Positions 3,222 to 59,284 of a DNA stretch of 64,000 bases are shown piece by piece; positions within the stretch are counted from its first letter, which is position 1; each line of letters starts with the position of its first letter. Position numbers and translations under genes: made by a program. The DNA comes from Mobula hypostoma (taxonomy: Eukaryota): assembly GCF_963921235.1 (NCBI RefSeq), contig NC_086097.1:136340001-136404000 (forward strand), in the 5' to 3' direction. The notes under the pieces were generated by a model, which was not told the origin of the DNA, made no database searches, and saw nothing but the letters and a program-made list of their open reading frames with translations.

Positions 3222-4170
3222 CTCCCAATACTGACTACCTTGCTAAGAAATGTCCACTCTCTGGTAAATAAAACCGAAGATCTCAGGGCTACGGCGCTGT
3301 ATCAGAGGGATGTCAGGACCATTTGCATCCATTGTTTCACAGAATCCTGGTTAACCCCTTCCATTCTGGATGTAGCAATTCAGATTGATGGGTTCACAAT
3401 ATACAGCCAAGATGGGACTGCTGAGTCTTCACGACTGCTTCATGATCAACTCTTCATGGTGTACAAACAGGGCAGTACTGTCCGCCAGATCTAGAACACC
3501 TCGCAAAGAAGTATTGTCCATTTTACCTGCCACGGGAGATTTCACCGATCATTTTGGTAGTGGTGTACATCCCACCACAGGCTCTAGACACAGACAAGCT
3601 CAATGCCTTTTCTGCTCGCTTTGAAACAGAGAATAAAACTACAGCCATGAGGAGCACCCGGTGACCCTGTGAACTCTGTCTCAGAGGCTGATATCAGGCT
3701 GTCTCTGAGGAAGGCAAATCCTTGCAAAGTGGTAGGCCCCAATGGAGTACCTGGTAAGGCTCTGAAAACCTTGCACCAAACAAATGGTGGGGCTGTTCAA
3801 AGACATCTTCAATCTCTCACCGCTACAGTCAAAAGATCCCACCTGCTTCAAAAGGGCAACTATTATACCAGTGCCCAAGAAGAGCAGGGTGAGCTGTACA
3901 TCCCCCTGCAACTGAATCCTCAACTTCCTAACTACAATCTGTGCGAATTGGAAATAACATCTCTACCTCGCTAGTAATCAACACTGACACCCCTCAGGGA
4001 TGTGTGCTTAGCCCACTGCTCTACTCTCCTTACACCCATGACTATATGGTTAGGCACAACTCAAATGCCATCGATAAATTTGCTGATAATACTAGCCTTC
4101 GTGGTATCCAAGACATCTTCAAGGAACAATGCCTCAAAAAGGTGGCATCCATCATTAAGGACCCATACGG
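3222..4170 (+). mobile_element. Internally deleted Rex1/Babar-type LINE (endonuclease plus RT remnants)
   Basis: NVHSLVNK..CFTESWL (APE domain), ANPCKVVGPNGVPG, and NTDTPQGCVLSPLLYSPYTHDY..KFADN (RT). Confidence 0.8.
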
Positions 4171-4206
4171 GTGCCCATAGCTACACCTTTAGTTTGGAGG
4201 TGCTAC

Positions 4207-5212
4207 ACCTGGTCCTTACCTATCACCCCACCAGCCTCCGGGTCCAACATATTATTCTCCGTAACTTCCGCCACCTCCAACGGGATCCCACCACTAGGCA
4301 CATCTTTCCCTCCGCCCCTCTCTCTGCATCCCGCAGGGCTCGCTCCCTACGCATCTCCCTTGTCCATTCGTCCCCCCCATCCCTCCCCACTGATCTCCCT
4401 CCTGGCACTTATCCGTGTAAGCGGAACAAGAGCTACACATGCCCTTACACTTCCTCCCTTACCACTATTCAGGGCCCCAAACAGTCCTTCCAGGTGAGGC
4501 AACACTTCATCTGTGAGTCGGCTGGGGTGATATACTGCGTCCGGTGCTCCCGATGCGGCCTTTTATATATTGGCAAGACCCGACGCAGACTGGGAGACCG
4601 CTTTGCTGAACATCTACGCTCTGTCCGCCAGAGAAAGCAGGATCTCCCAGTGGCCACACATTTTAATTCCACATCCCATTCCCATTCTGACATGTCTATC
4701 CACGGCCTCCTCTACTGTAAAGATGAAGCCACACTCAGGTTGGAGGAACAACACCTTATATTCCGTATGGGTAGCCTCCAACCTGATGGCATGAACATTG
4801 ACTTCTCTAACTTCCGCTAGGCCCCACCTCCCCCTCGTACCCCATCTGTTACTCATTTTTATACACACATTCTTTCTCTCACTCTCCTTTTTCTCCCTCT
4901 GTCCCTCTGAATATACCCCTTGCCCATCCTCTGGGTTCCCCCCCCCTTGTCTTTCTTCCCGGACCTCCTGTCCCATGATCCTCTCGTATCCCTTTTGCCT
5001 ATCACCTGTCCAGCTCTTGGCTCCATCCCTCCCCCTCCTGTCTTCTCCTATCATTTTTGATCTCCCCCTCCCCCTCCAACTTTCAAATCCCTTACTCACT
5101 CTTCCTTCAGTTAGTCCTGACGAAAGGTCTCGGCCTGAAACGTCGACTGCACCTCTTCCTAGAGATGCTGCCTGGCCTGCTGCATTCACCAGCAACTTTT
5201 ATGTGTGTTGCT
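4207..5212 (+). mobile_element. Penelope-like element, 5'-truncated: GIY-YIG endonuclease plus 3' terminal repeat
   Basis: LVLTYHP...PGTYPCKRNKSYTC...VIYCVRCSRCGLLYIGKTRRRLGDRFAEH...GMNIDFSNFR* (stop at 4820). Pyrimidine-rich 3'UTR, then a hammerhead-type terminal motif. Confidence 0.93.
5113..5148 (+). ncRNA. Minimal type I hammerhead ribozyme motif in Penelope terminal repeat
   Basis: agtc-CTGACGA-a-aggt(ctcg)gcct-GAAA-CGTC-gact. Stem I is agtc/gact, stem II is aggt/gcct, stem III is the palindrome ACGU, and the GUC triplet ends at 5144. Confidence 0.75.
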
Positions 5213-5412
5213 CTCAAAGCACTTCATCACAATAGATGTGAGGGCAACTGGGCAATAGTTGTTAAGGCAGCTCACTCTGCCCTTCTTGGACACTGGTATG
5301 ATTGTCTCCCTTTTGAAGCAGGTAGGAAACTCCAACTGCAGTGGTGAGAGATTGAAGATGTCCTTGGACACTCCTGCCAGTTGGTTGGTACAGGTTTTCA
5401 ATGGCCTACCAA
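5213..5412 (-). mobile_element. Rex1/Babar RT fragment
   Basis: Minus ORF contains LKTCTNQLAGVSKDIFNLS..PTCFKRETIIPVSKK..YCPVALTSIVMKCFE. Confidence 0.85.
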
Positions 5413-6299: not shown

Positions 6300-6855
6300 A
6301 TATTTTCATCAACCGTGGGATTTAGTTCGAGAGCCATGAGGTAATGTGACAGCTGTATAAGACTTTTGTTAGACTGTGTTCAGTTCTGGTTGCTTCACTA
6401 CAGGAAGGATGGGGGTAATATTTGAATAGTACAGAGGAGATTTACAAGGATGTTGCCTGAATTGGAGAGTATGCCTTATGAGAATAGGTAGAGTGAACTT
6501 GGCCTTTTCTCCTTGGAGTGACAAAAGAATGATAGAGGTGTACAAGAGGATCAGAGGCATTGATCGTGTGGATAGACAGAGGCTTTTTTCCCAGGGCTGA
6601 AATGGGTATAGTTTTAAGGTGCTTGGAAGTAAGTACAGAGGGGATATCAGGCGTAAGTTTTTTTACACAGAGAGTGGTGGGTGCGTAGAATGCACTGCCA
6701 GTGACAGTGGTAGAGGTGGATACAATTGGGTCTTTTAAGAGACTCTTAGATAGGTACATAGAGCTTAGAAAAACAGAGTGCTATGCGGTAGGGAAATTCT
6801 AGGCAGTTTCTAGGCTAGGGTACATGGTCGGCACAACATTGTGGGCTCAAGGGCC
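6300..6855 (+). mobile_element. Older CR1 3' part; its tail resumes at 8914-8950
   Basis: CR1 C-terminal remnants. The 3'UTR ...gtgggctcaagggcc | tgtaatgcgctgtagatttctatg is split by the younger CR1. Confidence 0.8.
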
Positions 6856-8913
6856 ACAGAATAAATCAAGGAAGGTAGTGCACCCGTGGCTGACAAGAGA
6901 AATTAGGGATAGTATCAATTCCAAAGAAGTAGCATACAAATTAGCCAGAGAAAGTGGCTCACCTGAGGACTGGGAGAAATTCAGAGTTCAGCAGAGGAGG
7001 ACAAAGGGCTTAATTAGGAAGGGGAAAAAAGATTATGAGAGAAAACTGGCAGAGAACATAAAAACGGACTGTAAAAGCTTTTATAGATATGTAAAAAGGA
7101 AAAGACTGATAAAGAGAAATGTAGGTCCCCTGCAGACAGAAACAGGTGAATTGATTATGGGGAGCAAGGACATGGCAGACCAATTGAATAATTACTTTGG
7201 TTCTGTCTTCACTAAGGAGGACATAAATAATCTTCCAGAAATAGTAAGGGACAGAGGGTCCAGTGAGATGGAGCAACTGAGTGAAATACATGTTAGTAGG
7301 TAAGTGGTGTTAGGTAAATTGAAGGGATTGAAGGCAGATAAATCCCCAGGGCCAGATGGTCTGCATCCCAGAGTGCTTAAGGAAGTAGCCCAAGAAATAG
7401 TGGATGCATTAGTGATAATTTTTCAAAACTCGTTAGATTCTGGACTAGTTCCTGAGGATTGGAGGGTGGCTAATGTAACCCCACTTTTTAAAAAAGGAGG
7501 GAGAGAGAAACCGGGGAATTATAGGCCGGTTAGCCTAACGTCGGTGGTGGGGAAACTGCTGGAGTCAGTTATCAAGGATGTGATAACAGCACATTTGGAA
7601 AGCGGTGAAATGATCGGACAAAGTCAGCATGGATTTGTGAAAGGAAAATCATGTCTGACGAATCTCATAGAATTTTTTGAGGATGTAACTAGTAGAGTGG
7701 ATAGGGGAGAACCAGTGGATGTGGTATATTTGGATTTTCAAAAGGCTTTTGACAAGGTCCCACACAGGAGATTAGTGTGCAAACTTAAAGCACACGGTAT
7801 TGGGGGTAAGGTATTGGTGTGGGTGGAGAATTGGTTAGCAGACAGGAAGCAAAGAGTGGGAATAAACGGGACCTTTTCAGAATGGCAGGCGGTGACTAGT
7901 GGGGTACCGCAAGGCTCAGTGCTGGGACCCCAGTTGTTTACAATATATATTAATGACTTGGATGAGGGAATTAAATGCAGCATCTCCAAGTTTGCGGATG
8001 ACACGAAGCTGGGTGGCAGTGTTAGCAGTGAGGAGGATGCTAAGAGGATGCAGGGTGACTTGGATAGGTTGGGTGAGTGGGCAAACTCATGGCAGATGCA
8101 ATTTAATGTGGATAAATGTGAAGTTATCCACTTTGGTGGCAAAAATAGGAAAACAGATTATTATCTGAATGGTGGCCGATTAGGAAAAGGGGAGGTGCAA
8201 CGAGACCTGGGTGTCATTATACACCAGTCATTGAAAGTGGGCATGCAGGTACAGCAGGCGGTGAAAAAGGCGAACGGTATGCTGGCATTTATAGCGAGAG
8301 GATTCGAGTACAGGAGCAGGGAGGTACTACTGCAGTTGTACAAGGCCTTGGTGAGACCACACCTGGAGTATTGTGTGCAGTTTTGGTCCCCTAATCTGAG
8401 GAAAGACATCTTTGCCATAGAGGGAGTACAAAGAAGGTTCACCAGATTGATTCCTGGGATGGCAGGTCTTTCATATGAAGAAAGACTGGATGAACTGGGC
8501 TTGTACTCGTTGGAATTTAGAAGATTGAGGGGGGATCTGATTGAAACGTATAAGATCCTAAAGGGATTGGACAGGCTAGATGCGGGAAGATTGCTCCCGA
8601 TGTTGGGGAGGTCCAGAATGAGGGGTCACAGTTTGAGGATAGAGGGGAAGCCTTTTAGGACCGAGATTAGGAAAAACTTCTTCACACAGAGAGTGGTGAA
8701 TCTGTGGAATTCTCTGCCACAGCAAACTGTTGAGGCCGTTTCATTGGCTGTGTTTAAGAGGAAGTTAGATATGGCCCTTGTGGCTACAGGGGTCAGGGGG
8801 TATGGAGGGAAGGCTGGGTTCTGAGTTGGATGATCAGCCATGATCATAATAAATGGCGGTGCAGGCTCAAAGGGCCGAATGGCCTACTCCTGCACCTATT
8901 TTCTATGTTTCTA
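6856..8913 (+). mobile_element. Young 5'-truncated CR1 LINE
   Basis: Continuous ORF2 frame with a single stop at 7301-7303. 3'UTR ends in (tttctatg)n. Confidence 0.96.
7304..8824 (+). pseudogene. CR1 ORF2 reverse transcriptase (506-aa open segment of a truncated copy)
   Basis: KSPGPDG, NYRPVSLTS, YLDFQKAFDKV, GVPQGSVLGP, KFADDTK and RPHLEYC motifs. The in-frame upstream part is 6856-7300. The endonuclease domain is missing. Confidence 0.95.
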
Positions 8914-10769: not shown

Positions 10770-11000
10770 TTCATTAGGACTATCAGCCCCTTATCTTTCC
10801 TACCCAGCTGGCTTCACCTATTGTCATCGTCGTCTGAACCCTTAGTGCCTAGGTGGCACATTGGGCCTCCACAAGGGTGCTTCAACTATCACCTTCCAGC
10901 TGTCCTTCTTCCCCTCTCCCCAGCTTTCTATTCTGGCATCTCCTACCTTCCTTTCCAGTCCTGAGGAAGGGTCTTTGTCCAAAACATCGACTGTTCATTA
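10770..11000 (+). mobile_element. Penelope 3' terminal repeat fragment (decayed hammerhead)
   Basis: ccagtcctgaggaagggtctttgtccaaaacatcgactg is homologous to 5113-5148. Confidence 0.7.
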
Positions 11001-11369: not shown

Positions 11370-11552
11370 CAAAAGATTCTGCAGAAGCTAGAAATCCAGA
11401 GCAATGCACACAAAATGCTGGAAGAACTCAGCAGGTCAGGCAGCTTCTGTGGAGGAAAACAAACAGTCAACATTTTGGGCCAAGACCTTCCATTAGGAGT
11501 ATCAGATGTTTATTCCCCTCCATTGATGCTGCCTGACCTGCTGAGTTCCTCC
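11370..11552. mobile_element. Two short Penelope terminal fragments in inverted orientation
   Basis: gaactcagcaggtcaggcagc (about 11424) is the reverse complement of gctgcctgacctgctgagttc (about 11528). Confidence 0.75.
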
Positions 11553-14889: not shown

Positions 14890-15672
14890 AGGAGAAAATC
14901 TGCAGATGCTGGAAGTCTGAGCAACACACACAAAATGCTGGAGGAACTCAGCAGGCCAGGCAGCATCTGCAAAAAGAGTGCAGTCGACGTTTCAGGCCGA
15001 AACCCTTCAGCAGAACTGGAGAAGAAAACCCGAGGAGTAGATTTGAAAGGTGGGGGCGGGGAGAGAGAAACACAAGGTGATGGGTGAAACCTGACGGGTG
15101 CTCCCGGTGTGGCCTCCTGTCTGTCGGTGAGACCCGATGTAGATTGGGAGACTGCTTCGCCAAGCACCTACTTGAAGGAGTAGGATCTCCCTGTAGCCAC
15201 ATATTTTAATCCCATTCTGATGGCCTCCTCCACTGTTACTTGGAGGAACAACACATTATATTCTGTCTGGGTAGTCTCCAACCTGATGGCATGAACATCA
15301 ATTTCTCAAACTTCTGGTAATGCCCCCCGACCCCTTCTCCTTCAACATTTCCCATCCCCTTTTCCCTCTCTCACCTTACCTCCTTGACCACCCATCGTCT
15401 CCCTCTGGTGCTCCTCCCCCACTTTTCTTTCTTCCATGGCCTTCTGTCTCTTTTATCAATTTAATTCCCAGCTCTTTACTTCACCCCTCCCCTTTCAGTT
15501 TTCACCTACCACCTTCTGTTTCTCTCTCCCCTCCCCACACCTTTTAAATCTACTCCTCAGCTTTTTTTTCCTCCAGTCCTGCTGAAGGGTCTCTCAGCCC
15601 AAAATGTCGGACTGTGCTCTTTACCTAGATGCTGCCTAGCCCGCTGAGTTCCTCCAGCATTTTGTGTGCGTT
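14890..15672 (+). mobile_element. Penelope-like element with inverted terminal repeat flanking a GIY-YIG remnant
   Basis: About 14915-15095 is the reverse complement of about 15495-15672. The central 15096-15320 is homologous to the GIY-YIG coding region at 4540-4820. Confidence 0.88.
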
Positions 15673-30899: not shown

Positions 30900-32160
30900 G
30901 ATGGCAGATGCAATCTCAATGGCTTTCCACGCGGCTTTATACCACCTGGGCAACACAAACACCTATATCAGGATGCTGTTCATTGACTATAGCTCAGTAT
31001 TTAATACCATCTTTCCCACAATCCTGATTGAGAAGTTGTAGAATCTGGACCTCTGTAACTCCCTCTGCAACTGGATCCTCGACTTCCTAACCAGAAGACC
31101 ACAGTCTGTGTGGATGGTGACAATATCTTCTCCTCGCTGACGATCAACACTGGCGCACCTCAAGGGTGCGTGCTTAGCCCACTGCTCTACTCTCTGTATA
31201 CACAAGACTGTGTGGCTAGGCATAGCTCAAATACCATCTATAAATTTGCTGATGATACAACCATTGTTGGTAGAATCTCAGATGGAGATGAGAGGGCGTA
31301 CAGGAGTGAGATATGCCAACTAGTGGAGTGGTGTCGCAGCAACAACCTTGAATTCAACATCAGTAAGGCGAAAGAGCTGATTGTGGACTTCAGGAAGAGT
31401 AAGACGAAGGAACAGATACCAATCCTCATAGGGGGATCAGAAGTGAGCGAGCAGTTTCAAGTTCTTGGGTGTTAAGATCTCTGAGGATCTAACCTGGTCC
31501 CAACAAACTGATGTAGTCATGAAGAAGACAGGACAGTGGCTATTCTTTATTAGGAGTTTGAAGAGATTTGGTATGTCAACAAATGCACTCAAAAACTTCT
31601 ATAGTTGTTCCCGGGAGAGCATTCTGACAGGCTGCATCACTGTCTGGTATGAAGGGGGGGAGGGGGGGTGCTACTGCACAGGACCGAAAGAAGCCGCAGA
31701 GGGTTGTAAATTTAGTCGGCTCAGTCTTGGGTACTAACCTACAAAGTACCCAGGACATCTTCAGGGAGTGGTGTCTCAGTAAAGCAGCGTCCATTATTGA
31801 GGACCTCCGGCACCCAGGGCATGCCCTTTTCTCACTGTTACCATCAGGTAGGAGGTACAGAAGCCTGAAGGCACACACTCAGCGATTCAAGAACAGCTTC
31901 TTCCCCTCTGTCATCTGATTCCTAAATGGCCATTGAACCCTTGGACACTACCTCACTTTTTTAATATACAGTATTTCTACTTTTTGCACGATTTTTAATC
32001 TATTCAATATACGTATACTGTATAAAGTATGCTGAATAAGATTTACTTATTTATTATTATTTTATTTTTTTCTTCTAGATTACGTATTGCATTGAACTGC
32101 TGCTACCAAGTTAACAAATTCCACATCACATGCCGGTGATAATAAACCTGATTCTGATTC
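30900..32160 (+). mobile_element. Rex1/Babar LINE 3' half
   Basis: NTGAPQGCVLSPLLYSLYTQDC..KFADDTTIVG and PSGRRYRSLKAHTQRFKNSFFP. Tail aataaacctgattctgattc. Confidence 0.92.
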
Positions 32161-32999: not shown

Positions 33000-33830
33000 G
33001 GATCCCAGAGGAACATTGGCAGTGGTGGGTGGAAAAATCAATCAAAGCGGGAGGACGATAAAGCAGCAGTTATTCTGTCATGTATATTTCCAAGAGACAA
33101 CAAAGTGCCTGGAACCACATAGTGTACAAGCAAAAGGAAAGGGATGAATACAGAGAACAATGAGACAGTGTACAAGTAGAGTTGGACGGGTTGATAGAAC
33201 AGAACACATGCAGAGAGACAGAGAGAGAGAGAGATGGGTGAAAAACAGGCAGAACAATTAGAACAATACAAGAATGAATTAGGCAGGGATCTTGGCAGAC
33301 TGAGAGGTAAATAGGACAAGGTCCAGCAGATGGGTACTTACCGAGCAGCTGCCATGGGAATAACCAATGAAGAAGGTGATGAGGGAAATCGTGAAGCATT
33401 GGACCAGGGTATTGGCAAGTGGGGAAGTGCCCGTTAACTGGAAAGGTTATTCCCTGCACTCCCTGTCAGAATGGTACCTATAGAGACCAGGCAATGGCAG
33501 ACTCAGAACCCCAATGATCCTAGCCAGTCATACCCCCTCATCACCACCATCCACAAATCCTTCACCCCAGGGGAAAAACAAAGTGTTCTATCTGAACTGC
33601 CTTCACTTGGAGTTTTACATGGCAATGCAGAATTTTGGTGTAAGTTAGAAGAAGTGGTAGAAGTCCACAAGATGCACCGCAAAGATATTCACATATTGGT
33701 TAAAGCTAAATGCCCAAGAAATATGAGGGACAGAATGACCCCAGGGGTGCAGAATAGAACATGGGCAGCTAGTAGGAATGGCAGTAATGAGGAGAGGTAT
33801 CAGAACTTTAGTGGAGAGAGAGAGAGAGAG
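33000..33830 (+). pseudogene. Putative degenerate gag-like ORF of an LTR element/ERV
   Basis: Broken coiled-coil-like frames (KQKERDEYREQ; KQAEQLEQYKNELGRDLGRLRGK), then ORF 33471-33881 with HKSFTPGEKQSVLSELP..FWCKLEEVVEVHKMHRKDIHILVKAKCP. Confidence 0.4.
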
Positions 33831-35964
33831 AAAGAGAGGGAGGAAGAGAGAAAATATACGTATATATGCGTGAACGCGTGAGAGCAAAGTCTGTCATGTG
33901 TTCGTTAAATCTGTATTGGAAGGATGTTTGAGTTAATCCAAAAGGAAAGTTCTGTTACTAGATGTGAAATTCATTCACAGGATATCTTTTTACGAAGTAT
34001 CTAAGACATGGTGTGAATGTGTATATGTCGAAGGCCCACCCATCTATCATTTCTTTTTCTTTGTTCATTGAAATATGCTTATTCTGTACTAAATGTTTAT
34101 TCCAAGTATTTTTCAGTTCATTTGTGAAACTTCAGAAGGATGAAAAGTGCAAGGATATATTCTTGTTTTCTCTTATCTATGTTTGAAGTTTGTGTCTATT
34201 TACTTATTTGTTTTGGAATTGATATTGGAGACAGAGACCCAGATTTCACACCGGCCATGTGGAATCCAGTTTAAGGTAATAGAAATGTGAGTACCTGTAT
34301 TCTGGATATGAGATTCCCACATTCTTGAAAGAAATTGGCATTTTGGGAAATTGGTGATTCGTGTATCCTCAAATTGAGAATTTGAAAATTATGTTATTGG
34401 AAAGAGATTGGAGTGATCTGAAGGACAGTGATCTGAAAAATTGTTTTCCTTCTTAACAAGAATATTCAATTTGGAATATTTTGGAAAAAAAACTCTGCAA
34501 AGTCAAGACATAGTCAGTGTACTCCACATGAAAAGCAAATGAGTATGCAAATGTAGAATGTGCTTGAAGTGCAGCATGTGTCTGGTAAAATGCAAATGAA
34601 AGCTGACCATTGCTGACCTTAGAGAACCAGAGGGAGAAGCAGGCCAAGTGTGTCAGCCCACTAACAATCTCATTATAGGAAATTAAACAATGACCACCAA
34701 CCTCCTGATTGAAGAAGGCCTGTGAGTGAAAAGGAAAGGGAACGTGAAAACAAAGAGAACGTGACAGCAAGCCGTGAGTAAAGTTTAAGGTATAACGGTA
34801 ACTATACTTTGTAATGAAGGCTGGTTCTGGAAGTTAGTTGATTAGTTATATAGATCAGAATAAAAATATATTGGGAAAATAGAATCCGAGTTGTGGCAGA
34901 GATATCAAGTTTCACAACCTTGATGTAAAGCAGATTGAAAATGAGAAGGAATTTCACACAATGTCTGAAGGCAGTCACCCCCGCCTGAATGTGGAATGTA
35001 CACAGATGAGCTGGGCCCTTTCAGCAGTTGGACCAGTGACTGAAAGGAGAATTCGGGAGGGGTGCCACCAAAGTGAGGTGCTTGCAACCATTCCTAACCC
35101 TCCTGGAGATCAATACTATTGAAATTGTATTGAATCACTTGCTGCTACTTTTGATCTTAAGGGTATAAAAGTGTGATGTACTTTTGGGTTGTGTGCCTCT
35201 ACCAAGAGTATCTCTGTGAGAATATCTGTTTGTTGTAATGTTAAAGACTTTCACATCCAGCGTCTGTCCAGTGACTTCAATCACACTCACAACAATCCTC
35301 TTTAAAGCCTCCCGAGATGTAGCCTCCAGGAAGGAGCCTTCCAACAATTCACCATTGTGGAGTTGGAGAAGGAATAATCCGTAAAATTATAGCCAGGCCT
35401 TTAAAGATGAGGCACTCATGCACAGCAGGTGATGGAAGTTAGGAACTCTGATCTGATCTGAAAAATACCAAGTAAGAGTCTGTGAATGTGACAGCATTGC
35501 CGGGAAGGTAATGTGAAGGAGGTAATTTGTTCAGAATTCTGACAGCCAAGCTACTCATGGACTTTGACGTCTGGGCCCTCACACTCCTGTATCTTGTCCC
35601 AAAGGTAGAAGAGGGGGAAGGAAATGACCAGGGTAGCAGGCATCTGTGCTGATACTGTTGGCCATTCTGAAGCAATACACCATGAAGAGGGACTGGATGG
35701 AAGGAAATGCTAAACCTGTGACGAACTGAGCATCTATTATGAATAAAGTAGGTTTGTGAAATAAAAACAGACAATCTAGGCTGTGATCTCCACTGTTACT
35801 ACAGGATATAGAACATTACAACACAATACAGACCCTTCAGCCCACAATGTTGTGTTTACCCTACTCTAAAATCAATCTAATGCTTCCTCCTACAGAGCCC
35901 TCCATCCTTCTATCACCCATGTGTTCAGATCTGGTCACCCTGCTATAGCAGACCTGTGGACAAA

Positions 35965-39529: not shown

Positions 39530-40758
39530 TGTGCAGCACAGCTTAATGAGGTGCTGATGGATATTTTCAATATCTCTCTGGAACAATCTATTGGCCCCTC
39601 GGTTTTCAAGGCAGCAACCATCATTCCAATGCCAAAGAAGGCAACAGTTTCCTGTCTAAATGGCTATCGTCCTGTGGCATGAATATCAACCATTATGAAG
39701 TGCCTTGAGCAGCCAGTCAAGGAGCACGTTAAAGCCTTTCTCTTGGCTACATTGGACCCTTTCCAGTTCACACCGCTCAAATCAATCCACTGATGATGCA
39801 ATAGTCTCTGCCCTTCACTCTGTTCCACATGCCCAACTTCTATTTATAGACTTCAGTCCGCTGTTTAACGCCATCAAACTCCGAAACAGGTAGGGAAAAT
39901 GTCCTCGCTGGGTCTCAATGCCTCCCTCTATAACTGGATCCTGGACTTTTTAACAGCAAGGCCACAGTCAACCCGTATAGGCTCAGCGTCTCTAGTCCCA
40001 TTAAGCCGAGCACTGGCGCTTTCCAGGACTGTGTGCTCAGCCAGCTGCTGTTCTCAGTGCTGAAGCGTGATAGTGTCGCAGGATTCAGCCCAAGCCATTT
40101 CATCATGTTTGCGGATGGGGCAACAGTGGTCGGCCTCATCAACAACAATGATGAGTCTGATGAGTCAGAGTAGAGAGAGGAAGTGGATGGGGTGAGAACA
40201 ATAACCCAAGTCTGAACGTGGTGAAGATAAAGAAAATGACTGTAGACCAGGGGTGGTGCAGATGAACCACCCCCTCTGCACCAACATGTCTCCTCTGTAG
40301 AGAGAGTTACGTAAATGCACCAAGTTCCTGGGAGTTCACATCATGGACAACCACTCCTGGCCCCTCAATATCACCTTCCTGAACAAGAAGCATGGCAGCG
40401 CCTCCACTTCCTGAGGAATTTGAGGCAAGTGAGGCTTCTCCTCCCCGCCCCCATCTTAACTACATTTTACAGACAAGAACAGTCAGGATGGGAAATGGCT
40501 TCGGAACTCCCTGCTGCATTGCATTCAAAGTGTCACCTGACAATTTGTCCTGTGCCCTACTATATTTAATTTATGCACTTCACTCTGTTTATCTATGTGT
40601 AATTCATTTGTCGATTTAGTTCTTACTTTCCCAGGTTATTGTGTTATATGTGTGTTATGCGTACTACTGTGCTTTACGCCCTGGTTTGAAGAAACATCTC
40701 GTTCAGCGGTGTGCATATAAATAGTTAAATGACAATAAAACTTGACTTGACTTGACTT
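39530..40758 (+). mobile_element. Degenerate Rex1/Babar LINE
   Basis: RT remnants (LLFIDFS..FN; FADG; QRLHFLR). Tail aataaaacttgacttgacttgactt. Confidence 0.82.
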
Positions 40759-51989: not shown

Positions 51990-53633
51990 CAGGTTTCCCC
52001 CCACCATCCGAAGGTAGAGCATTTTTATGAAACGGTTCGTAAGCCAAAATGTTGTAAAGTGAAGAAGCAATTACCATTTATTTATATGGGAAAAAATTGT
52101 GAGCATTCGCAGACCCAAAAATAACCTACCAAATCATGCCAAATAACACATAAAACCTAAAATAACAGTAACGTATAGTAAAAGCAGGAATGATATGATA
52201 AATACACAGCCTATATAAAGTAGAAATACTTTTCCACAATCATTGCTGCACTGTTCTCCGTAGTGAAAATCTCACGCAAGCGCCGTCGACAGAAAATCTC
52301 ACGCAAGCGCTGTTGGCAAAAACACGGCGCAAGCGCTGTCCAGAAACCTTTAAGCTATGAAGCTGCCAAATCATACCAAATAACACGTAAAAATACACAG
52401 CCTATATAAAGTAGAAATGATGTATGTACAGTGTAGTTTCACTTACCGGAATTGGGACAGAGCCGAGCACACTGATGGTGGTGTATTAGACTGAGTCGTC
52501 GCAGGCTGGAGTGGTGCAGTGGCCCCCATCCTCCGGGCCACCAACTGATACTGGTCCGCGAAGCATGCAGGGGTGCAGCGGTAGCCGGGAGGCACACAGC
52601 ACATCTTTAAGAAAAAAGCTGAAACAAACATGCTAATTAATTAGGTGCCGCCCGGCATGTAATTGTCGGCCCAGATCAGTGCCGATTTCCAATTGCGCCG
52701 TCTCTGATCTCGGCCAACAATTAGGTGTCAGGCGGCACCTAATTAATTAGCATGTTTATTTCGGCTTTTTTCTTAAAGATGTGTTGTGTGCCTCCCAGCT
52801 ACCGCTGCATTCTCCACGAATCAGTATCTGTCCGTGGCGTGTGGGTTGGGGTGGTGGGACACTGGGGTATCATCTGTTTCCATTAGGGCAGGCATGTCAT
52901 CTTCTATCTCTGCCCGCCTCGATGTCAAAAGTTGAGGTTCGTTGTCTGCTGTGGCTGATGTGGAAAGCTTGCTTGACTGCTGAGCCTCGCACATTTTTCA
53001 ATCACACAGTTCTTTGTAAGGACTCAAACCATCTTGCAAATATCCCCTAAACCTACGTACCCCTTCAAAATTAAAGTCGTACTTTATCATTGCAGCGAAA
53101 GTCTCACGCAGTTGCTTCATGTTCAGTTCACTACTGCATTCAGTTTCGATTTTTATCCTTTTTTCTTCCAATTGCATCAGCTCTTCATCTATCATATCTT
53201 GGTCATGGGATGCCAAAACCTCTTCAACAGCATCTTCGTCATTTTCCACAAGCCAAACTCACTTTGTCCTTACTTCGTTCACCATGATTGAAACGCTTAA
53301 TTATGTCTAGTTTTACGCTAAGCGTAACACCTTTACGAGCTCTTTTATGCTTTTCCGATACCATAGAACTCATCTTGCTAATGGCTGCTCACAGGCACGT
53401 GTTTAAGCAATGACGGCGAGAATGCTGTCCCGAATCTGGGGGAGAGCGGCTGCTCGGGGTGCACGCTGCCTTTTATCGCGCGCTGACTTTTCGCGCGCTG
53501 ATTTTTTATTGTGCGCTGCTTTTTTTTTGTTGCAGTGAAAACACCTTCTGAAAGCAAAAACAGGGTACTAATGTAGGTCTTTCGTAACAGTGAGGTTTCA
53601 TAAAGCAAACGTTCGAAAAGTGGGGGACACCTG
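51990..53633 (-). mobile_element. Tigger/pogo-like non-autonomous DNA transposon, copy 2
   Basis: Reverse complement of 24532-26149 throughout. TA TSD, same internal deletion and same fold-back. Confidence 0.92.
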
Positions 53634-55720: not shown

Positions 55721-56084
55721 GTTGTAGCTACCGTTGCAAGAAATTTTGTAGCCAATAACACAACCAGCTCCTGATGGTAACAATGTGTAAACGTGTGGAT
55801 GATGTGGTCTCAGTGATGTTAGTTAAGGGAGTCAGGGCAGTGGTGAGGACAAGTATTCTGTGTTGAAAAATATCATTCACATTCACTGGAGAGGACATGC
55901 AGGGCTTTATTTAACATCACACATGACCGGCGACGCAGAAGCACTCCCTCTGCACTAAAGCCAAGACACGCTCACAACCTGAAATGAGGCTTGTAGTGAC
56001 AGCATCTGTCGCCTGAACTGCAGCTGCTAATCTGTGCGGATTGGTATTTACTGTATATCTCCTCACCGTTGACAATCGCTTCAG

Positions 56085-57043
56085 GGGTGTGTGCTTAGCC
56101 CACTGCTCTACCCTTGCTACATCCATGACTGTGTGGCTAGCTATAGCTCAAATACCATCTATAAATTTGTTGATGATACCACCATTGTTGGTAGAATCTC
56201 AGATGGAGATGAGAGGGTGTACAGGAGCGAGATGTACCAGCTAGATGAGCGGTGTCGCAGCAAGAACTTTACACTCAATGTCCGTAAGACCAAAGAGTTG
56301 TTTGTGGATTTCAGGAAGAGTAAGATGAGGGAACACGAGCCAATCCTCATAGAGGGATCAGAAGTGGAGGGAGTGAGCAGTTTCAAGTTCGTGGGTGTCA
56401 AGATCTGTGAGGATCTAGCCTGGTCCCAACATATCGATGCAACTATAAAGGGAAGACAGCAGCTACATTTTATTAAGAGTTTGAGGGGATTTGGTTTGTC
56501 ACCTAAAACACTCAAAAACGTCTACAAATGTACCGTGAAGAGCATCATGACAGGCTATATCACTCTCGTATGGAGGTAGTGGGCTTCTCTACAGGATCGA
56601 AAGAAGCTACAGAAAGTGTAAAATTAGTCAGCTCAATCTTGAGTGCTCGCCTCCGAACTATCCAAGACATCTTCAAGGAGCGGTGCCTCAGAAAGGCAGT
56701 GTCCATTAATAAAGACCCCCATCGCCCATGATGCTCTTTTCTCACTGTTACCATCCGATAGGAGGTACAGAAGCCTGAAGGCACACACTCAGCGATTCAA
56801 GAACAGCTTCTTCCTGTCTGCCATCTGATTCCTAAATAGACATTGAACCTGTGAACACTACCTCACTTTTTTTAATATTGTTTCTGTTTTTGAACTATTT
56901 TTAACTTACCGAATTTAATACACATATATTTAGATGTTTAAATTTTTTTTCTATAATCATGTATTGCATTGTACTGCTGACACTGTTAACAAAATTCATG
57001 ATATATACCAGTGATATTAAACCTGATTTTGATTCTGATTCTG
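56085..57043 (+). mobile_element. Rex1/Babar LINE 3' half
   Basis: LSPLLYPCYIHDC..KFVDDTTIVG. Same subfamily as 30900-32160. Tail aaacctgattttgattctgattct. Confidence 0.92.
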
Positions 57044-57045
57044 TG

Positions 57046-58680
57046 AAACATAGAAACATAGAAAATAGGTGCAGGAGTAGGCCATTCGGCCCTTCGAGCC
57101 TGCACCGCCATTTATTATGATCATGGCTGATCATCCAACTCAGAACCCCGCCCCAGCCTTCCCTCCATACCCCCTGATCCCCGTAGCCACAAGGGCCATA
57201 TCTAACTCCCTCTTAAATATAGCCAATGAACTGGCCTCAACTGTTTCCTGTGGCAGAGAATTCCACAGATTAACCACTCTCTGTGTGAAGAAGTTTTTCC
57301 TAATCTCGGTCCTAAAAGGCTTCCCCTTTATCCTCAAACTGTGACCCCTTGTTCTGGACTTCCCCAACATCGGGAACAATCTTCCTGCATCTAGCCTGTC
57401 CAATCCCTTTAGGATTTTATACGTTTCAATCAGATCCCCCCCTCAATCTTCTAAATTCCAACGAGTACAAGCCCAGTTCATCCAGTCTTTCTTCATATGA
57501 AAGTCCTGCCATCCCAGGAATCAATCTGGTGAACCTTCTTTGTACTCCCTCTATGGCAAGGATGTCTTTCCTCAGATTAGGGGACCAATAACTGCACACA
57601 ATACTCCAGGTGTGGTCTCACCAAGGTCTTGTACAACTGCAGTAGTACCTCCCTGCTCCTGTACTCGAATCCTCTTGCTATAAATGCCAGAATACCATTC
57701 ACCTTTTTCACCGCCTGCTGTACCTGCATGCCCACTTTCAATGACTGGTGTATAATGACACCCAGGTCTCGTTGCACCTCCCCTTTTCCTAATCGGCCAC
57801 CATTCAGATAATAATCTGTTTTCCTATTTTTGCCACCAAAGTGGATAACTTCACATTTATCCACATTAAATTGCATCTGCCATGAATTTGCCCACTCACC
57901 CACCCTATCCAAGTCACTCTGCATCCTCTTAGCATCTTCCTCACAGCTAACACTGCCACCCAGCTTCGTGTCATCCGCAAACTTGGAGATCCTGCATTTA
58001 ATTCCCTCATCCAAGTCATTAATATATATTGTAAACAACTGGGGTCCCAGCACTGAGCCTTGCGGTACCCCACTAGTCACCGCCTGCCATTCTGAAAAGG
58101 TCCCATTTATTCCCACTCTTTGCTTCCTGTCTGCTAACCAATTCTCCATCCACATCAATACCTTACCCCCAATACCATGTGCTTTAAGTTTGCACACTAA
58201 TCTCCTGTGTGGGACCTTGTCAAAAGCCTTTTGAAAATCCAAATATACCACATCCACTGGTTCTCCCCTATCCACTCTACTGGTTACATCCTCAAAAAAT
58301 TCTATGAGATTCGTCAGACATGATTTTCCTTTCACAAATCCATGCTGACTTTGTCCGATCATTTCACCGCTTTCCAAATGTGCTGTTATCACATCTTTGA
58401 TAACTGACTCCAGCAGTTTCCCCACCACCAACGTTAGGCTAACCGGTCTATAATTCCCCGGTTTCTCTCTCCCTCCTTTTTTAAAAAGTGAGGTTACATT
58501 AGCCACCCTCCAATCCTCAGGAACTAGTCCAGAATCTAACGAGTTTTGAAAAATTATCACTAATGCATCCACTATTTCTTGGGCTACTTCCTTAAGCACT
58601 CTAGGATGCAGACCATCTGGCCCTGGGGATTTATCTGCCTTCAATCCCTTCAATTTACCTAACACCACTTCCCTACTAAC
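57046..58680 (-). mobile_element. Young 5'-truncated CR1 LINE, same subfamily as 6856-8913
   Basis: ORF 57577-58668 is near-identical to 7304-8824 (I count 11 aa differences in about 359). Two +1 frameshifts, at about 57589 and in the C-run at about 57436-57442. Confidence 0.96.
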
Positions 58681-59284
58681 AAGTGAAGGGCAGTGACAGA
58701 ATATTGCTGGGACTTAGTACGTCAGGATGTCCGAGCCCCAACCAAGGCTCAGTTTAACTTGAGAGGTGCTGCAGCAGAAAACTATGATAGCATCGCAGAG
58801 TGACTCTGAGCTCCTGTAAGTAATATCCTTGATAAGAGGATAAAATATTGAACGCATTGTTCACTGAACAGGAGCAGGCCGCACCAGAGGTGGGGTTTAT
58901 ACCCGGTTCCTTCCTTCCTTAGCTTATAAAAAGCAGGATTCTCATTGGTATCTCTAATGTTATTTTACCAAGTGCAGCAAAAGCTTTTCTGTAGTCTCAA
59001 CTAGTCTCTAGGCCAATTATTAGAAGTAAGGAGCGATCCCTGTAGATTATTCCAAAGAAGAAACCTTGCAAGCCTTTGCTTTCCCTACCAAGGCCCTCTT
59101 GTGGATCCACCACCCCTGCTCTTAATTAAAGGAAAGACTGACATTACCACTCCCTCCATCTGGCTAGATTCATCCTGATGGTGTCTTCCAAAAGAAGGCA
59201 CACACCCCACCAACAATTTCAAAGCAAATGCTTCCATACAAGTTTGACTCAGTGACCCATTTTATTAGTACCTCCTGTTTGTGA

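What the first reader, a model, noticed from the sequence alone, without database searches (positions are those of the whole stretch)
5113..5148. Intact minimal hammerhead ribozyme at the 3' end of a Penelope element
Seen: agtc-CUGACGA-a-AGGU(cucg)GCCU-GAAA-CGUC-gacu has both catalytic boxes, a 4-bp stem I, a 4-bp stem II (with one extra A after CUGACGA) and a loopless palindromic stem III (ACGU). Established: Penelope-like elements carry minimal type I hammerheads in their pseudo-LTRs, thought to cleave as dimers. Inference: this copy could self-cleave after C5144 in any + strand transcript. It sits about 300 bp downstream of an open GIY-YIG frame and is the best candidate catalytic RNA in the window.
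Basis: partly seen in the sequence, partly recalled or inferred. Interest (0 to 1): 0.7.

Follow-up and report, generated by a model that had tools for sequence, protein, structure and literature searches.

The report
Penelope retrotransposon minimal hammerhead ribozyme
The 36 bases are a real copy of the small hammerhead-ribozyme motif that Penelope-like jumping genes are known to carry in their end repeats, here in a broken, lone copy in a ray genome, so it is ordinary in kind and unlikely to cut RNA on its own.

Summary
The motif is there as described and beyond chance (0 of 1000 shuffles give core plus two stems of at least 4 bp). It lies 293 bp behind the GIY-YIG stop of a 5'-truncated Neptune/Nematis-type Penelope-like element (inverted RT scrap 4158-4199, ORF end 4209-4820, terminal repeat to about 5212); the nearest proteins come from rays. 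Related elements carry the same motif at the same place (28 of 80 loci), with changes on both sides in 7 of 7 stem pairs. It fits the published minimal PLE hammerhead consensus, extra A included (PMC4209133). But self-cleavage 'in any + strand transcript' is not supported. Published monomers do not cleave, dimers are weak, and one PLE ribozyme needed its protein. None of the other 9 relics in the window is an intact partner. This copy also has A at position 10.1, where 97-99.7% of family depth has G. No host transcript was shown. Known kind, new host instance, probably a silent relic.

The parts
5113..5148 (+). Minimal type I hammerhead motif of a Penelope-like element (min-HHR): stem I 4 bp (a fifth U.G pair possible), both catalytic boxes, extra A after A9, stem II 4 bp, loopless palindromic stem III
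   Evidence: matches the consensus in PMC4209133 Fig. S3
5144..5144 (+). C17; predicted cleavage is 3' of this base (GUC triplet); not shown to be cut
   Evidence: position by hammerhead numbering; contigs cannot show RNA ends
5125..5125 (+). Position 10.1: A in this copy, G in the family; pairs with U5136 (family majority G.U, minority G-C)
   Evidence: shares worked out: G 98.1, 96.9, 99.7, 99.6% of depth in four runs; C at 5136 only 5.9-10.1%
4821..5212 (+). 3' pseudo-LTR of the element (pyrimidine-rich stretch, hammerhead, 68-nt stretch behind the cleavage site); family 3' ends pile up at 5209-5212
   Evidence: tables 2 and 7; similarity to other window copies
4209..4820 (+). 5'-truncated ORF end: RT thumb tail, Cx2-5CxxC linker (second Cys is Ser here), GIY-YIG endonuclease with CCHH residues (Glu after YIG is Lys here), stop at 4818-4820
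4158..4199 (-). Inverted 14-codon scrap of the same element's RT (motif with GxxMG..P), the usual 5' inversion of PLE insertions
   Evidence: 14 of 14 residues identical to P0007
3851..4164 (+). Flanking unrelated LINE fragment into which the element is inserted; supplies the first part of the 'open frame'
   Evidence: matches other window LINE pieces at 31053-31272, 56081-56193, 56646-56718
10957..10993 (+). Nearest same-strand relic of a clearly recognisable hammerhead; first box intact, GAAA box broken
14982..15017 (-). Relic hammerhead in an inverted terminal-repeat copy; A6 changed to C
15575..15613 (+). Relic hammerhead behind a second GIY-YIG remnant (15099-15323); both boxes broken

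Best explanation
This is the minimal, dimer-type hammerhead motif inherited with the 3' pseudo-LTR of a Neptune/Nematis-type Penelope-like retrotransposon, in a dead-on-arrival, 5'-truncated copy in a ray genome. How the kind works (inferred from the literature and the structure): stem III has no loop, so one motif cannot close an active site. Two motifs in a tandem element transcript pair through their ACGU palindromes and swap stem I strands, so that the core of one cuts after C17 of the other. The reaction is slow and probably needs the element's own protein as a chaperone; it processes long tandem transcripts but is not needed for reverse transcription. What this copy does (inferred): most likely nothing. 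It has no RT, no upstream repeat to supply a promoter or a partner, and no intact neighbour in the window. It also carries a private G10.1-to-A change that keeps the pair but replaces the conserved metal-binding guanine. Shown: sequence, element anatomy, covariation among relatives, family majority bases. Inferred: dimer mechanism, protein dependence, silence of this copy. My odds: some cleavage in vitro as an engineered tandem dimer at high Mg2+ about 0.45; as a monomer about 0.03; measurable cleavage of a transcript of this locus in vivo about 0.07.
For: Exact motif and chance test. GIY-YIG plus linker, and full-length relatives with RT motifs; 116 of 158 fetched relatives match a linker-plus-GIY-YIG pattern. 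28 of 80 related metagenome loci have a min-HHR 87-150 nt (one 403 nt) behind the endonuclease on the sense strand, against 6 hits in the other 529 kb, 4 of them inverted copies of the same motif. Picked by core only, 35 matches against 0.12 per shuffle, with 180 of 196 cells paired against 38%. On an ungapped alignment 7 of 7 stem pairs show a change on both sides, 0 of 500 shuffles reach this, and slid controls are 5-50% paired against 92%. The published consensus includes the extra base and the palindrome; monomers were inactive and dimers weak (PMC4209133). Protein-assisted cleavage, with uncut RNA as the main template (PMC11167929). The copy runs 68 nt past the cleavage site, and family 3' ends pile at 5209-5212, so its template RNA was uncut or rejoined. 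1 of 10 window copies is intact.
Against: No cleavage was measured, so activity is neither shown nor excluded. All 13 core positions are intact, and A-U at 10.1/11.1 occurs in 3 of the 56 published motifs (my reading of Fig. S3), so the private change may be mild. Family sequence is abundant in two runs guessed to be RNA (3583 and 3907 contigs laid), so partners in trans may exist. A partner upstream of window position 1 cannot be excluded. The covariation comes from distant (36-49% identical) elements and is dominated by one family; within the ray family only one-sided changes were visible. The clade (Neptune or Nematis) was not resolved by a tree.
Confidence: 0.88

Rival explanations
1. One reading: this copy is a working ribozyme that cuts any + strand transcript after C5144, alone or with a partner in trans drawn from the many family transcripts.
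For: Core intact, stems paired, GUC site; family sequence plentiful in two runs guessed to be RNA; the palindrome allows pairing between molecules.
Against: Monomers inactive and dimers weak in vitro (PMC4209133). 8 of 9 Xenopus dimer elements gave no cleavage product (bioRxiv 10.64898/2026.07.22.740005). The predicted monomer fold buries G5-G8 against 5141-5144 (probability 0.97-0.98 for the 36-mer) and stem I falls to 0.04 within the whole terminal repeat. The active swapped dimer scores -10.7 against -28.3 kcal/mol for the best dimer, though the model ignores core contacts. No intact cis partner; G10.1 is missing.
Confidence: 0.07
2. The motif's job in this family is not cleavage: it is a structured signal (dimerisation or protein-binding site near the reverse-transcription start) or a passenger, and the hammerhead boxes are kept for folding.
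For: Catalytic mutants did not affect insertion in vitro, and no RNA ends were found at the site in Anolis (PMC11167929). Naiad elements thrive without canonical hammerheads (PMC8557442 passages). Genomic copies span the site. This concerns the family's use of the motif and can hold together with the best explanation's identification.
Against: Both boxes, the extra base and U16.1-H17 are kept across very distant elements, and C3G/G8C rescue shows real ribozyme chemistry in the Anolis element. The alignment was selected on the boxes, so their invariance there is not independent.
Confidence: 0.2
3. Chance resemblance to a hammerhead inside a repeat.
For: Boxes alone occur by chance (47 of 100 shuffles); no Rfam hit; folding z-score -1.13.
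Against: 0 of 1000 shuffles with both stems of at least 4 bp; same motif at the same place in 28 of 80 related loci, with covarying stems.
Confidence: 0.01
4. A non-LTR retrozyme (tandem, non-coding, circular-RNA-forming unit) or a host-domesticated ribozyme conserved at this locus.
For: Retrozymes derive from PLE terminal repeats and were found in the one chondrichthyan sampled (bioRxiv 10.64898/2026.07.22.740005).
Against: Single copy attached to endonuclease coding sequence, not tandem; no listed contig bridges the 3' junction in four runs (listing is cut); no host exon among 300 of 454 frames scanned.
Confidence: 0.03

Closest known systems
Minimal hammerheads (min-HHR) of metazoan Penelope-like elements (Cervera and De la Pena 2014, PMC4209133; read parts 1-2 of 4 and supplement parts 1-2 of 3)
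   Same: Type I, both boxes, one extra base between 9 and 10.1, short stems, U-rich 5' flank, loopless CG palindrome, place in the 3' PLTR of a truncated element. The main family among the related loci matches the printed Acropora digitifera Neptune motif letter for letter over stems and core.
   Different: Host is a ray; none of the 56 motifs listed in Fig. S3 is from a cartilaginous fish. Pair 10.1/11.1 is A-U here and G.U in the family majority, not the consensus G-C. Stem II is at the short end (4 bp).
Poseidon element PAc of Anolis carolinensis and its protein-assisted hammerhead (Frangieh et al. 2024, PMC11167929; read parts 1-2 of 4)
   Same: GIY-YIG PLE with a hammerhead in the terminal repeat; genomic copies span the cleavage site and end at fixed points behind it, with an optional tail.
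   Different: Other clade (the ray element has the Cx2-5CxxC linker); PAc is full-length and active in vitro, whereas this copy has no RT.
Neptune/Nematis clades of EN+ PLEs (Craig et al. 2021, PMC8557442; passages read)
   Same: C-terminal GIY-YIG with CCHH residues, Cx2-5CxxC linker, inverted 5'-truncated piece next to the insertion, tail at one end only in neighbouring copies.
   Different: This copy is a 1.05-kb remnant with a Cys-to-Ser change in the linker; no (TA)n target is seen; no tree was made to choose between Neptune and Nematis.
Non-LTR retrozymes (bioRxiv 10.64898/2026.07.22.740005; read parts 1 and 3 of 5 and passages)
   Same: Type I hammerhead derived from PLE terminal repeats.
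   Different: Retrozymes are tandem non-coding units with a hammerhead in each; this is a solo motif still joined to coding sequence.

Membership tests
PLE minimal hammerhead (min-HHR) | Core boxes CUGANGA and GAAA with U16.1-H17 | tested here: met
PLE minimal hammerhead (min-HHR) | One unpaired base between positions 9 and 10.1 | tested here: met
   A5124; A in all 28 distinct motifs; listed as conserved in PMC4209133
PLE minimal hammerhead (min-HHR) | Helix I and helix II paired, with compensatory changes among families | tested here: met
   (7 of 7 pairs with a change on both sides); the 4 loci with a 5-bp stem II were left out of the ungapped alignment
PLE minimal hammerhead (min-HHR) | Palindromic positions 15.2/16.2 with no loop III | tested here: met
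   A5140 C5141 G5142 U5143; CG in 20 of 28 distinct motifs
PLE minimal hammerhead (min-HHR) | Typical (not obligatory) G10.1-C11.1 pair | tested here: not met
   A-U here; family majority G.U. Not in the published search descriptor, and A-U occurs in 3 of 56 published motifs, so this marks a variant copy and does not exclude membership
PLE minimal hammerhead (min-HHR) | Lies in the pseudo-LTR of a PLE, sense strand | tested here: met
   293 bp behind the GIY-YIG stop
PLE minimal hammerhead (min-HHR) | Self-cleavage as a dimer or with protein help | not testable with these tools
   needs in vitro assay; only contigs, no raw RNA reads, were offered
EN+ Penelope-like element, Neptune/Nematis type | C-terminal GIY-YIG endonuclease with CCHH residues | tested here: met
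   PF01541; C106, C109, H128, H144 conserved in alignment A3
EN+ Penelope-like element, Neptune/Nematis type | Cx2-5CxxC linker between RT and endonuclease | tested here: met
   intact in close relatives; in this copy the second Cys is Ser
EN+ Penelope-like element, Neptune/Nematis type | Telomerase-like RT in one ORF with the endonuclease | tested here: inconclusive
   present in relatives; in this copy only an inverted 14-codon scrap; no RT tree made
Functional (autonomous) PLE copy | Full ORF between two pseudo-LTRs, or tandem arrangement | tested here: not met
   5'-truncated at about 4209, single terminal repeat
Non-LTR retrozyme | Tandem units each with a complete hammerhead | tested here: not met
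   1 intact motif in 64 kb, no tandem unit
Canonical type I hammerhead as curated in Rfam | Score against an Rfam hammerhead model | tested here: not met
   no hammerhead family among 7 matches at E up to 10

The most novel reading that the evidence does not exclude
The ray genome carries this motif at very high copy number (10 relics in 64 kb, 1 intact; summed contig depth about 100 times that of the flanking LINE). Family transcripts could therefore act as partners in trans, so that scattered intact copies such as this one cut host read-through or intronic RNAs after C17 when the element's protein is present: a genome-wide, concentration-dependent RNA-cutting network. The natural G.U, G-C and A-U variants at 10.1/11.1 would make the long-open question of what PLE hammerheads do in vivo testable from one cyclic-phosphate sequencing run.
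Probability: 0.05. Interest if true: 0.7.

Novelty: new member of a known kind. Interest (0 to 1): 0.2.

Why it matters
As a single copy it matters little: the kind has been described since 2014 and this copy is a truncated relic. What remains of use is the family. The in vivo role of PLE hammerheads is still open (PMC8557442 passages; PMC11167929), and a vertebrate with a very large number of copies and natural core and stem variants is a sensitive place to look for cleavage products. I found no description of this ray family in the library searched, but most subscription papers are not held, and the closed supplements of the 2026 retrozyme preprint may list it.

Tried and rejected
Rfam scan of the window: no hammerhead family. 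No whole genome is held, so copies could not be counted directly. A tail pattern found 0 matches in viral contigs and 0 in metagenome contigs; the protein alignment found no relative in viral contigs and could not be run on genome contigs. Sequencing runs: no RNA holder listed; all runs were contigs, so RNA ends, strand and level could not be seen. No listed contig bridged the 3' junction, but the list is cut. A step in depth at 5145, which would mark copies starting at the cleavage site, is not evident at 11-base bins. CpG-type variants in the palindrome and at C17 were rarer in the two runs guessed to be RNA (1.7-4.4%) than in the DNA runs (5.6-11.6%); set aside because contigs drop rare variants. 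Whether G8 or other core G/C positions decay cannot be read fully: 16 rows are not shown, among them one C>T and two G>A places of run X1. Host exons: 300 of 454 stop-free frames outside repeats were scanned; 1 Pfam hit (ALKBH8_N at 40315-40566, which I recall as a LINE C-terminal motif). The rod-like monomer fold was weighed as evidence against this copy and given little weight: most related natural motifs fold the same way, and the rod helix has 1 of 6 pairs with a change on both sides against 3 of 3 for stem I. No target-site duplication was found (longest shared word 6 nt). Luense et al. (dimer cleavage of PLE hammerheads) is not held; I saw only its title and a review's summary. No measurement of an A10.1-U11.1 variant turned up.

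Full report
OBSERVATION. The sequence at 5113-5148 is exactly as reported. By hammerhead numbering, C3-A9 is 5117-5123, an extra A lies at 5124, stem II pairs 5125-5128 with 5133-5136, G12-A15.1 is 5137-5140, 15.2/16.2 are C5141/G5142, U16.1 is 5143 and C17 is 5144. Stem I pairs 5113-5116 with 5145-5148, and a fifth U.G pair is possible. The two boxes alone are not beyond chance (47 of 100 shuffles match). A descriptor that also asks for stems finds this one site in the window, 5 of 1000 shuffles at stems of at least 3 bp and 0 of 1000 at 4 bp. Folding energy is ordinary (z -1.13), and Rfam lists no hammerhead family at E up to 10; I attribute this to the missing loop III and loop contacts (inference).

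THE ELEMENT. The frame upstream holds a GIY-YIG domain (PF01541, E 4.7e-05), and its stop at 4820 is 293 bp before the motif. Its closest proteins are from Mobula hypostoma (91%) and Hypanus sabinus (70-82%), so the window most likely comes from a myliobatiform ray (inference). Those relatives carry RT motifs, a CKRNKCYTC linker and the CCHH endonuclease. Of 6266 representatives at E up to 0.001 the best 150 were listed; the long ones have RT motifs plus linker plus GIY-YIG, and 116 of all 158 fetched proteins match the linker-plus-GIY-YIG pattern. The linker marks the Neptune and Nematis clades (PMC8557442, passages); I made no tree to choose between them. In the window only 4209-4817 is PLE coding sequence. 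In front of it lies an inverted 14-codon scrap of the RT (4199-4158), and in front of that an unrelated LINE. The copy has Ser for the second linker Cys and Lys for the Glu after YIG, both at least 90% conserved in alignment A3. Family 3' ends pile up at 5209-5212. The unit is thus a 1.05-kb, 5'-truncated, partly inverted insertion with one terminal repeat, the common form of PLE copies (PMC8557442 Fig. 2 legend).

RELATED ELEMENTS. A min-HHR lies on the sense strand 87-150 nt (one 403 nt) behind the projected ORF end in 28 of 80 loci; 66 of the 80 have at least 300 nt downstream. The other 529 kb give 6 hits: four inverted copies of the same motif, one same-strand copy and one different hammerhead. 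Picked by core alone, there are 35 matches against 0.12 per shuffle, and 180 of 196 stem cells pair, against 38% in shuffles. On an ungapped alignment of the window copy with 31 of the 35 (4 with a longer stem II left out), all 7 pairs of stems I and II show a change on both sides, 92.3% of cells pair, 0 of 500 shuffles reach any measure, and slid controls reach 5-50%. One family dominates, so the number of independent events is small; its motif matches the Acropora digitifera Neptune motif printed in PMC4209133 Fig. S3.

THE RAY FAMILY. The window holds 10 hammerhead-derived copies, plus three tail-only pieces; only this one has both boxes. Contigs of four runs were laid on 5030-5340: 33,256 and 49,116 contigs from two DNA runs, and 3583 and 3907 from two runs guessed to be RNA. 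Summed depth over the hammerhead is about 100 times that over the flanking LINE; the tool warns that this is no copy number. If the window is typical, 10 relics per 64 kb in a 2.2-4.0 Gb batoid genome (sizes from bioRxiv 10.64898/2026.10.27.761883, passages) would mean a few hundred thousand (rough inference from one window). Position 5125 is G in 96.9-99.7% of depth, so the A is peculiar to this copy or a small subgroup; 5136 is mostly T (C 5.9-10.1%), so the family's first stem II pair is G.U and this copy's is A-U. All 28 descriptor hits among the related loci have G there. The other listed variants inside the motif are CpG-type changes at 5.6-15.6% in the DNA runs. For run X1 every A or T variant of at least 5% is among the rows shown, and none is in the core; one C>T and two G>A places are not shown. 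G10.1 binds a divalent ion through N7 (PMC6795133 and PMC6961537, passages), and removing that N7 costs about 30-fold. Adenine keeps an N7, even a U-U mismatch is tolerated (PMC3088659, passages), and A-U occurs in 3 of 56 published PLE motifs (my reading). I expect a milder loss of rate, but found no measurement.

HOW IT WORKS. Without loop III one motif cannot close stem III. In a dimer the two palindromes pair and the stem I strands swap, so the core of one copy cuts the site of the other (model in PMC4209133; my swapped structure nests without crossings). Cleavage after C5144 therefore needs a second, intact copy. None exists on either strand of the window; upstream of position 1 is unknown. 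In the published tests a single min-HHR did not cleave and dimers or trimers cleaved weakly. The Anolis PLE ribozyme cleaved only with the element's protein, catalytic mutants still supported insertion, and no RNA-seq reads began or ended at the site (PMC11167929). Eight of nine Xenopus dimer elements gave no product (bioRxiv 10.64898/2026.07.22.740005). In line with this, the present copy extends 68 nt beyond C17, so its template RNA was uncut or rejoined. Nearest-neighbour folding favours a rod that buries G5-G8 (0.97-0.98 in the 36-mer) and loses stem I in the full terminal repeat (0.04); the active dimer scores -10.7 against -28.3 kcal/mol. These models ignore core contacts, and relatives fold the same way, so this is weak evidence. 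I found no sign of a host transcript: no exon among 300 of 454 frames scanned. The best reading is a correctly inherited but probably silent ribozyme motif. Against that reading: the core is fully intact, family RNA may be abundant enough to pair in trans, and nothing here measures cleavage.

COMPARISON AND NOVELTY. It meets the tested defining features of the PLE min-HHR class. It lacks the typical but not obligatory G10.1-C11.1 pair, and activity could not be tested. It is not a retrozyme (no tandem units) and not part of an autonomous copy. No cartilaginous fish is among the 56 motifs of PMC4209133 Fig. S3, and searches for a description of this ray family found none. The 2026 preprint reports PLEs and retrozymes across vertebrates including one chondrichthyan, and its supplements, which I could not see, may cover such motifs; Luense et al. 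was not available. Earlier notes of this scan (44 fit the words in this genome, 8 shown) reach the same reading. They are unchecked AI notes and not independent support; one (e1-7790562) offers an insertion starting at the cleavage site as a lead that I did not test.

VERDICT. Observation confirmed; interpretation partly supported; new member of a known kind; interest 0.2. The boldest reading not excluded, trans-acting cleavage of host RNAs by a very large family, has probability about 0.05 and would deserve about 0.7.

Noticed in passing
window 14905-15672: Fold-back PLE insertion: inverted terminal-repeat copy with a tail extension (about 15068-14905, minus strand) next to a truncated GIY-YIG remnant and terminal repeat without the tail (15099-15672, plus strand); both hammerheads broken.
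   Followed up: partly
window 14982-15017 (-) and 15575-15613 (+): Both copies share the same core change, A6 to C. A natural A6C hammerhead cleaved at under 0.1 per minute (PMC3088659 passage). No A>C at 5120 reached 5% in run X1, so it is not common among close copies.
   Followed up: partly
window 11389-11552: Short fold-back made only of terminal-repeat pieces; it explains the spurious Rfam Plastid-psbJ-4 and MIR2275 matches.
   Followed up: yes
window 4158-4210: At the 5' junction the inverted RT scrap overlaps the flanking LINE by about 7 nt, and a 9-nt word occurs at both 4180-4188 and 4202-4210, which suggests microhomology-guided template switching.
   Followed up: partly
proteins P0003, P0005, P0007, P0010: Predicted ray proteins named as kinase-domain, mucin-2, chitinase-domain and neuromedin-U receptor isoforms contain this element's coding sequence: annotation carry-over or exonisation.
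   Followed up: no
window 6803-8824 (+) and 57577-58713 (-): Two long open frames of a LINE reverse transcriptase (506 aa with PF00078, E 4.2e-34; and a closely similar 378-aa frame), CR1-like by my recall.
   Followed up: no
window 52609-52776: Long inverted repeat that scores 49.7 bits against mir-7131 (gathering score 74); more likely the termini of a small DNA transposon than a microRNA.
   Followed up: no
L028:2030 (minus strand): A different hammerhead with a 6-bp stem I, no extra base after A9 and a longer palindromic stem III, near a related endonuclease.
   Followed up: no
L020, L021, L036, L055, L056: Related loci with a second intact hammerhead: inverted in four, and on the same strand 1.67 kb behind the endonuclease in L056.
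   Followed up: no
window 33438-33881 (+): 147-aa open frame outside the masked repeats, with no Pfam match.
   Followed up: no
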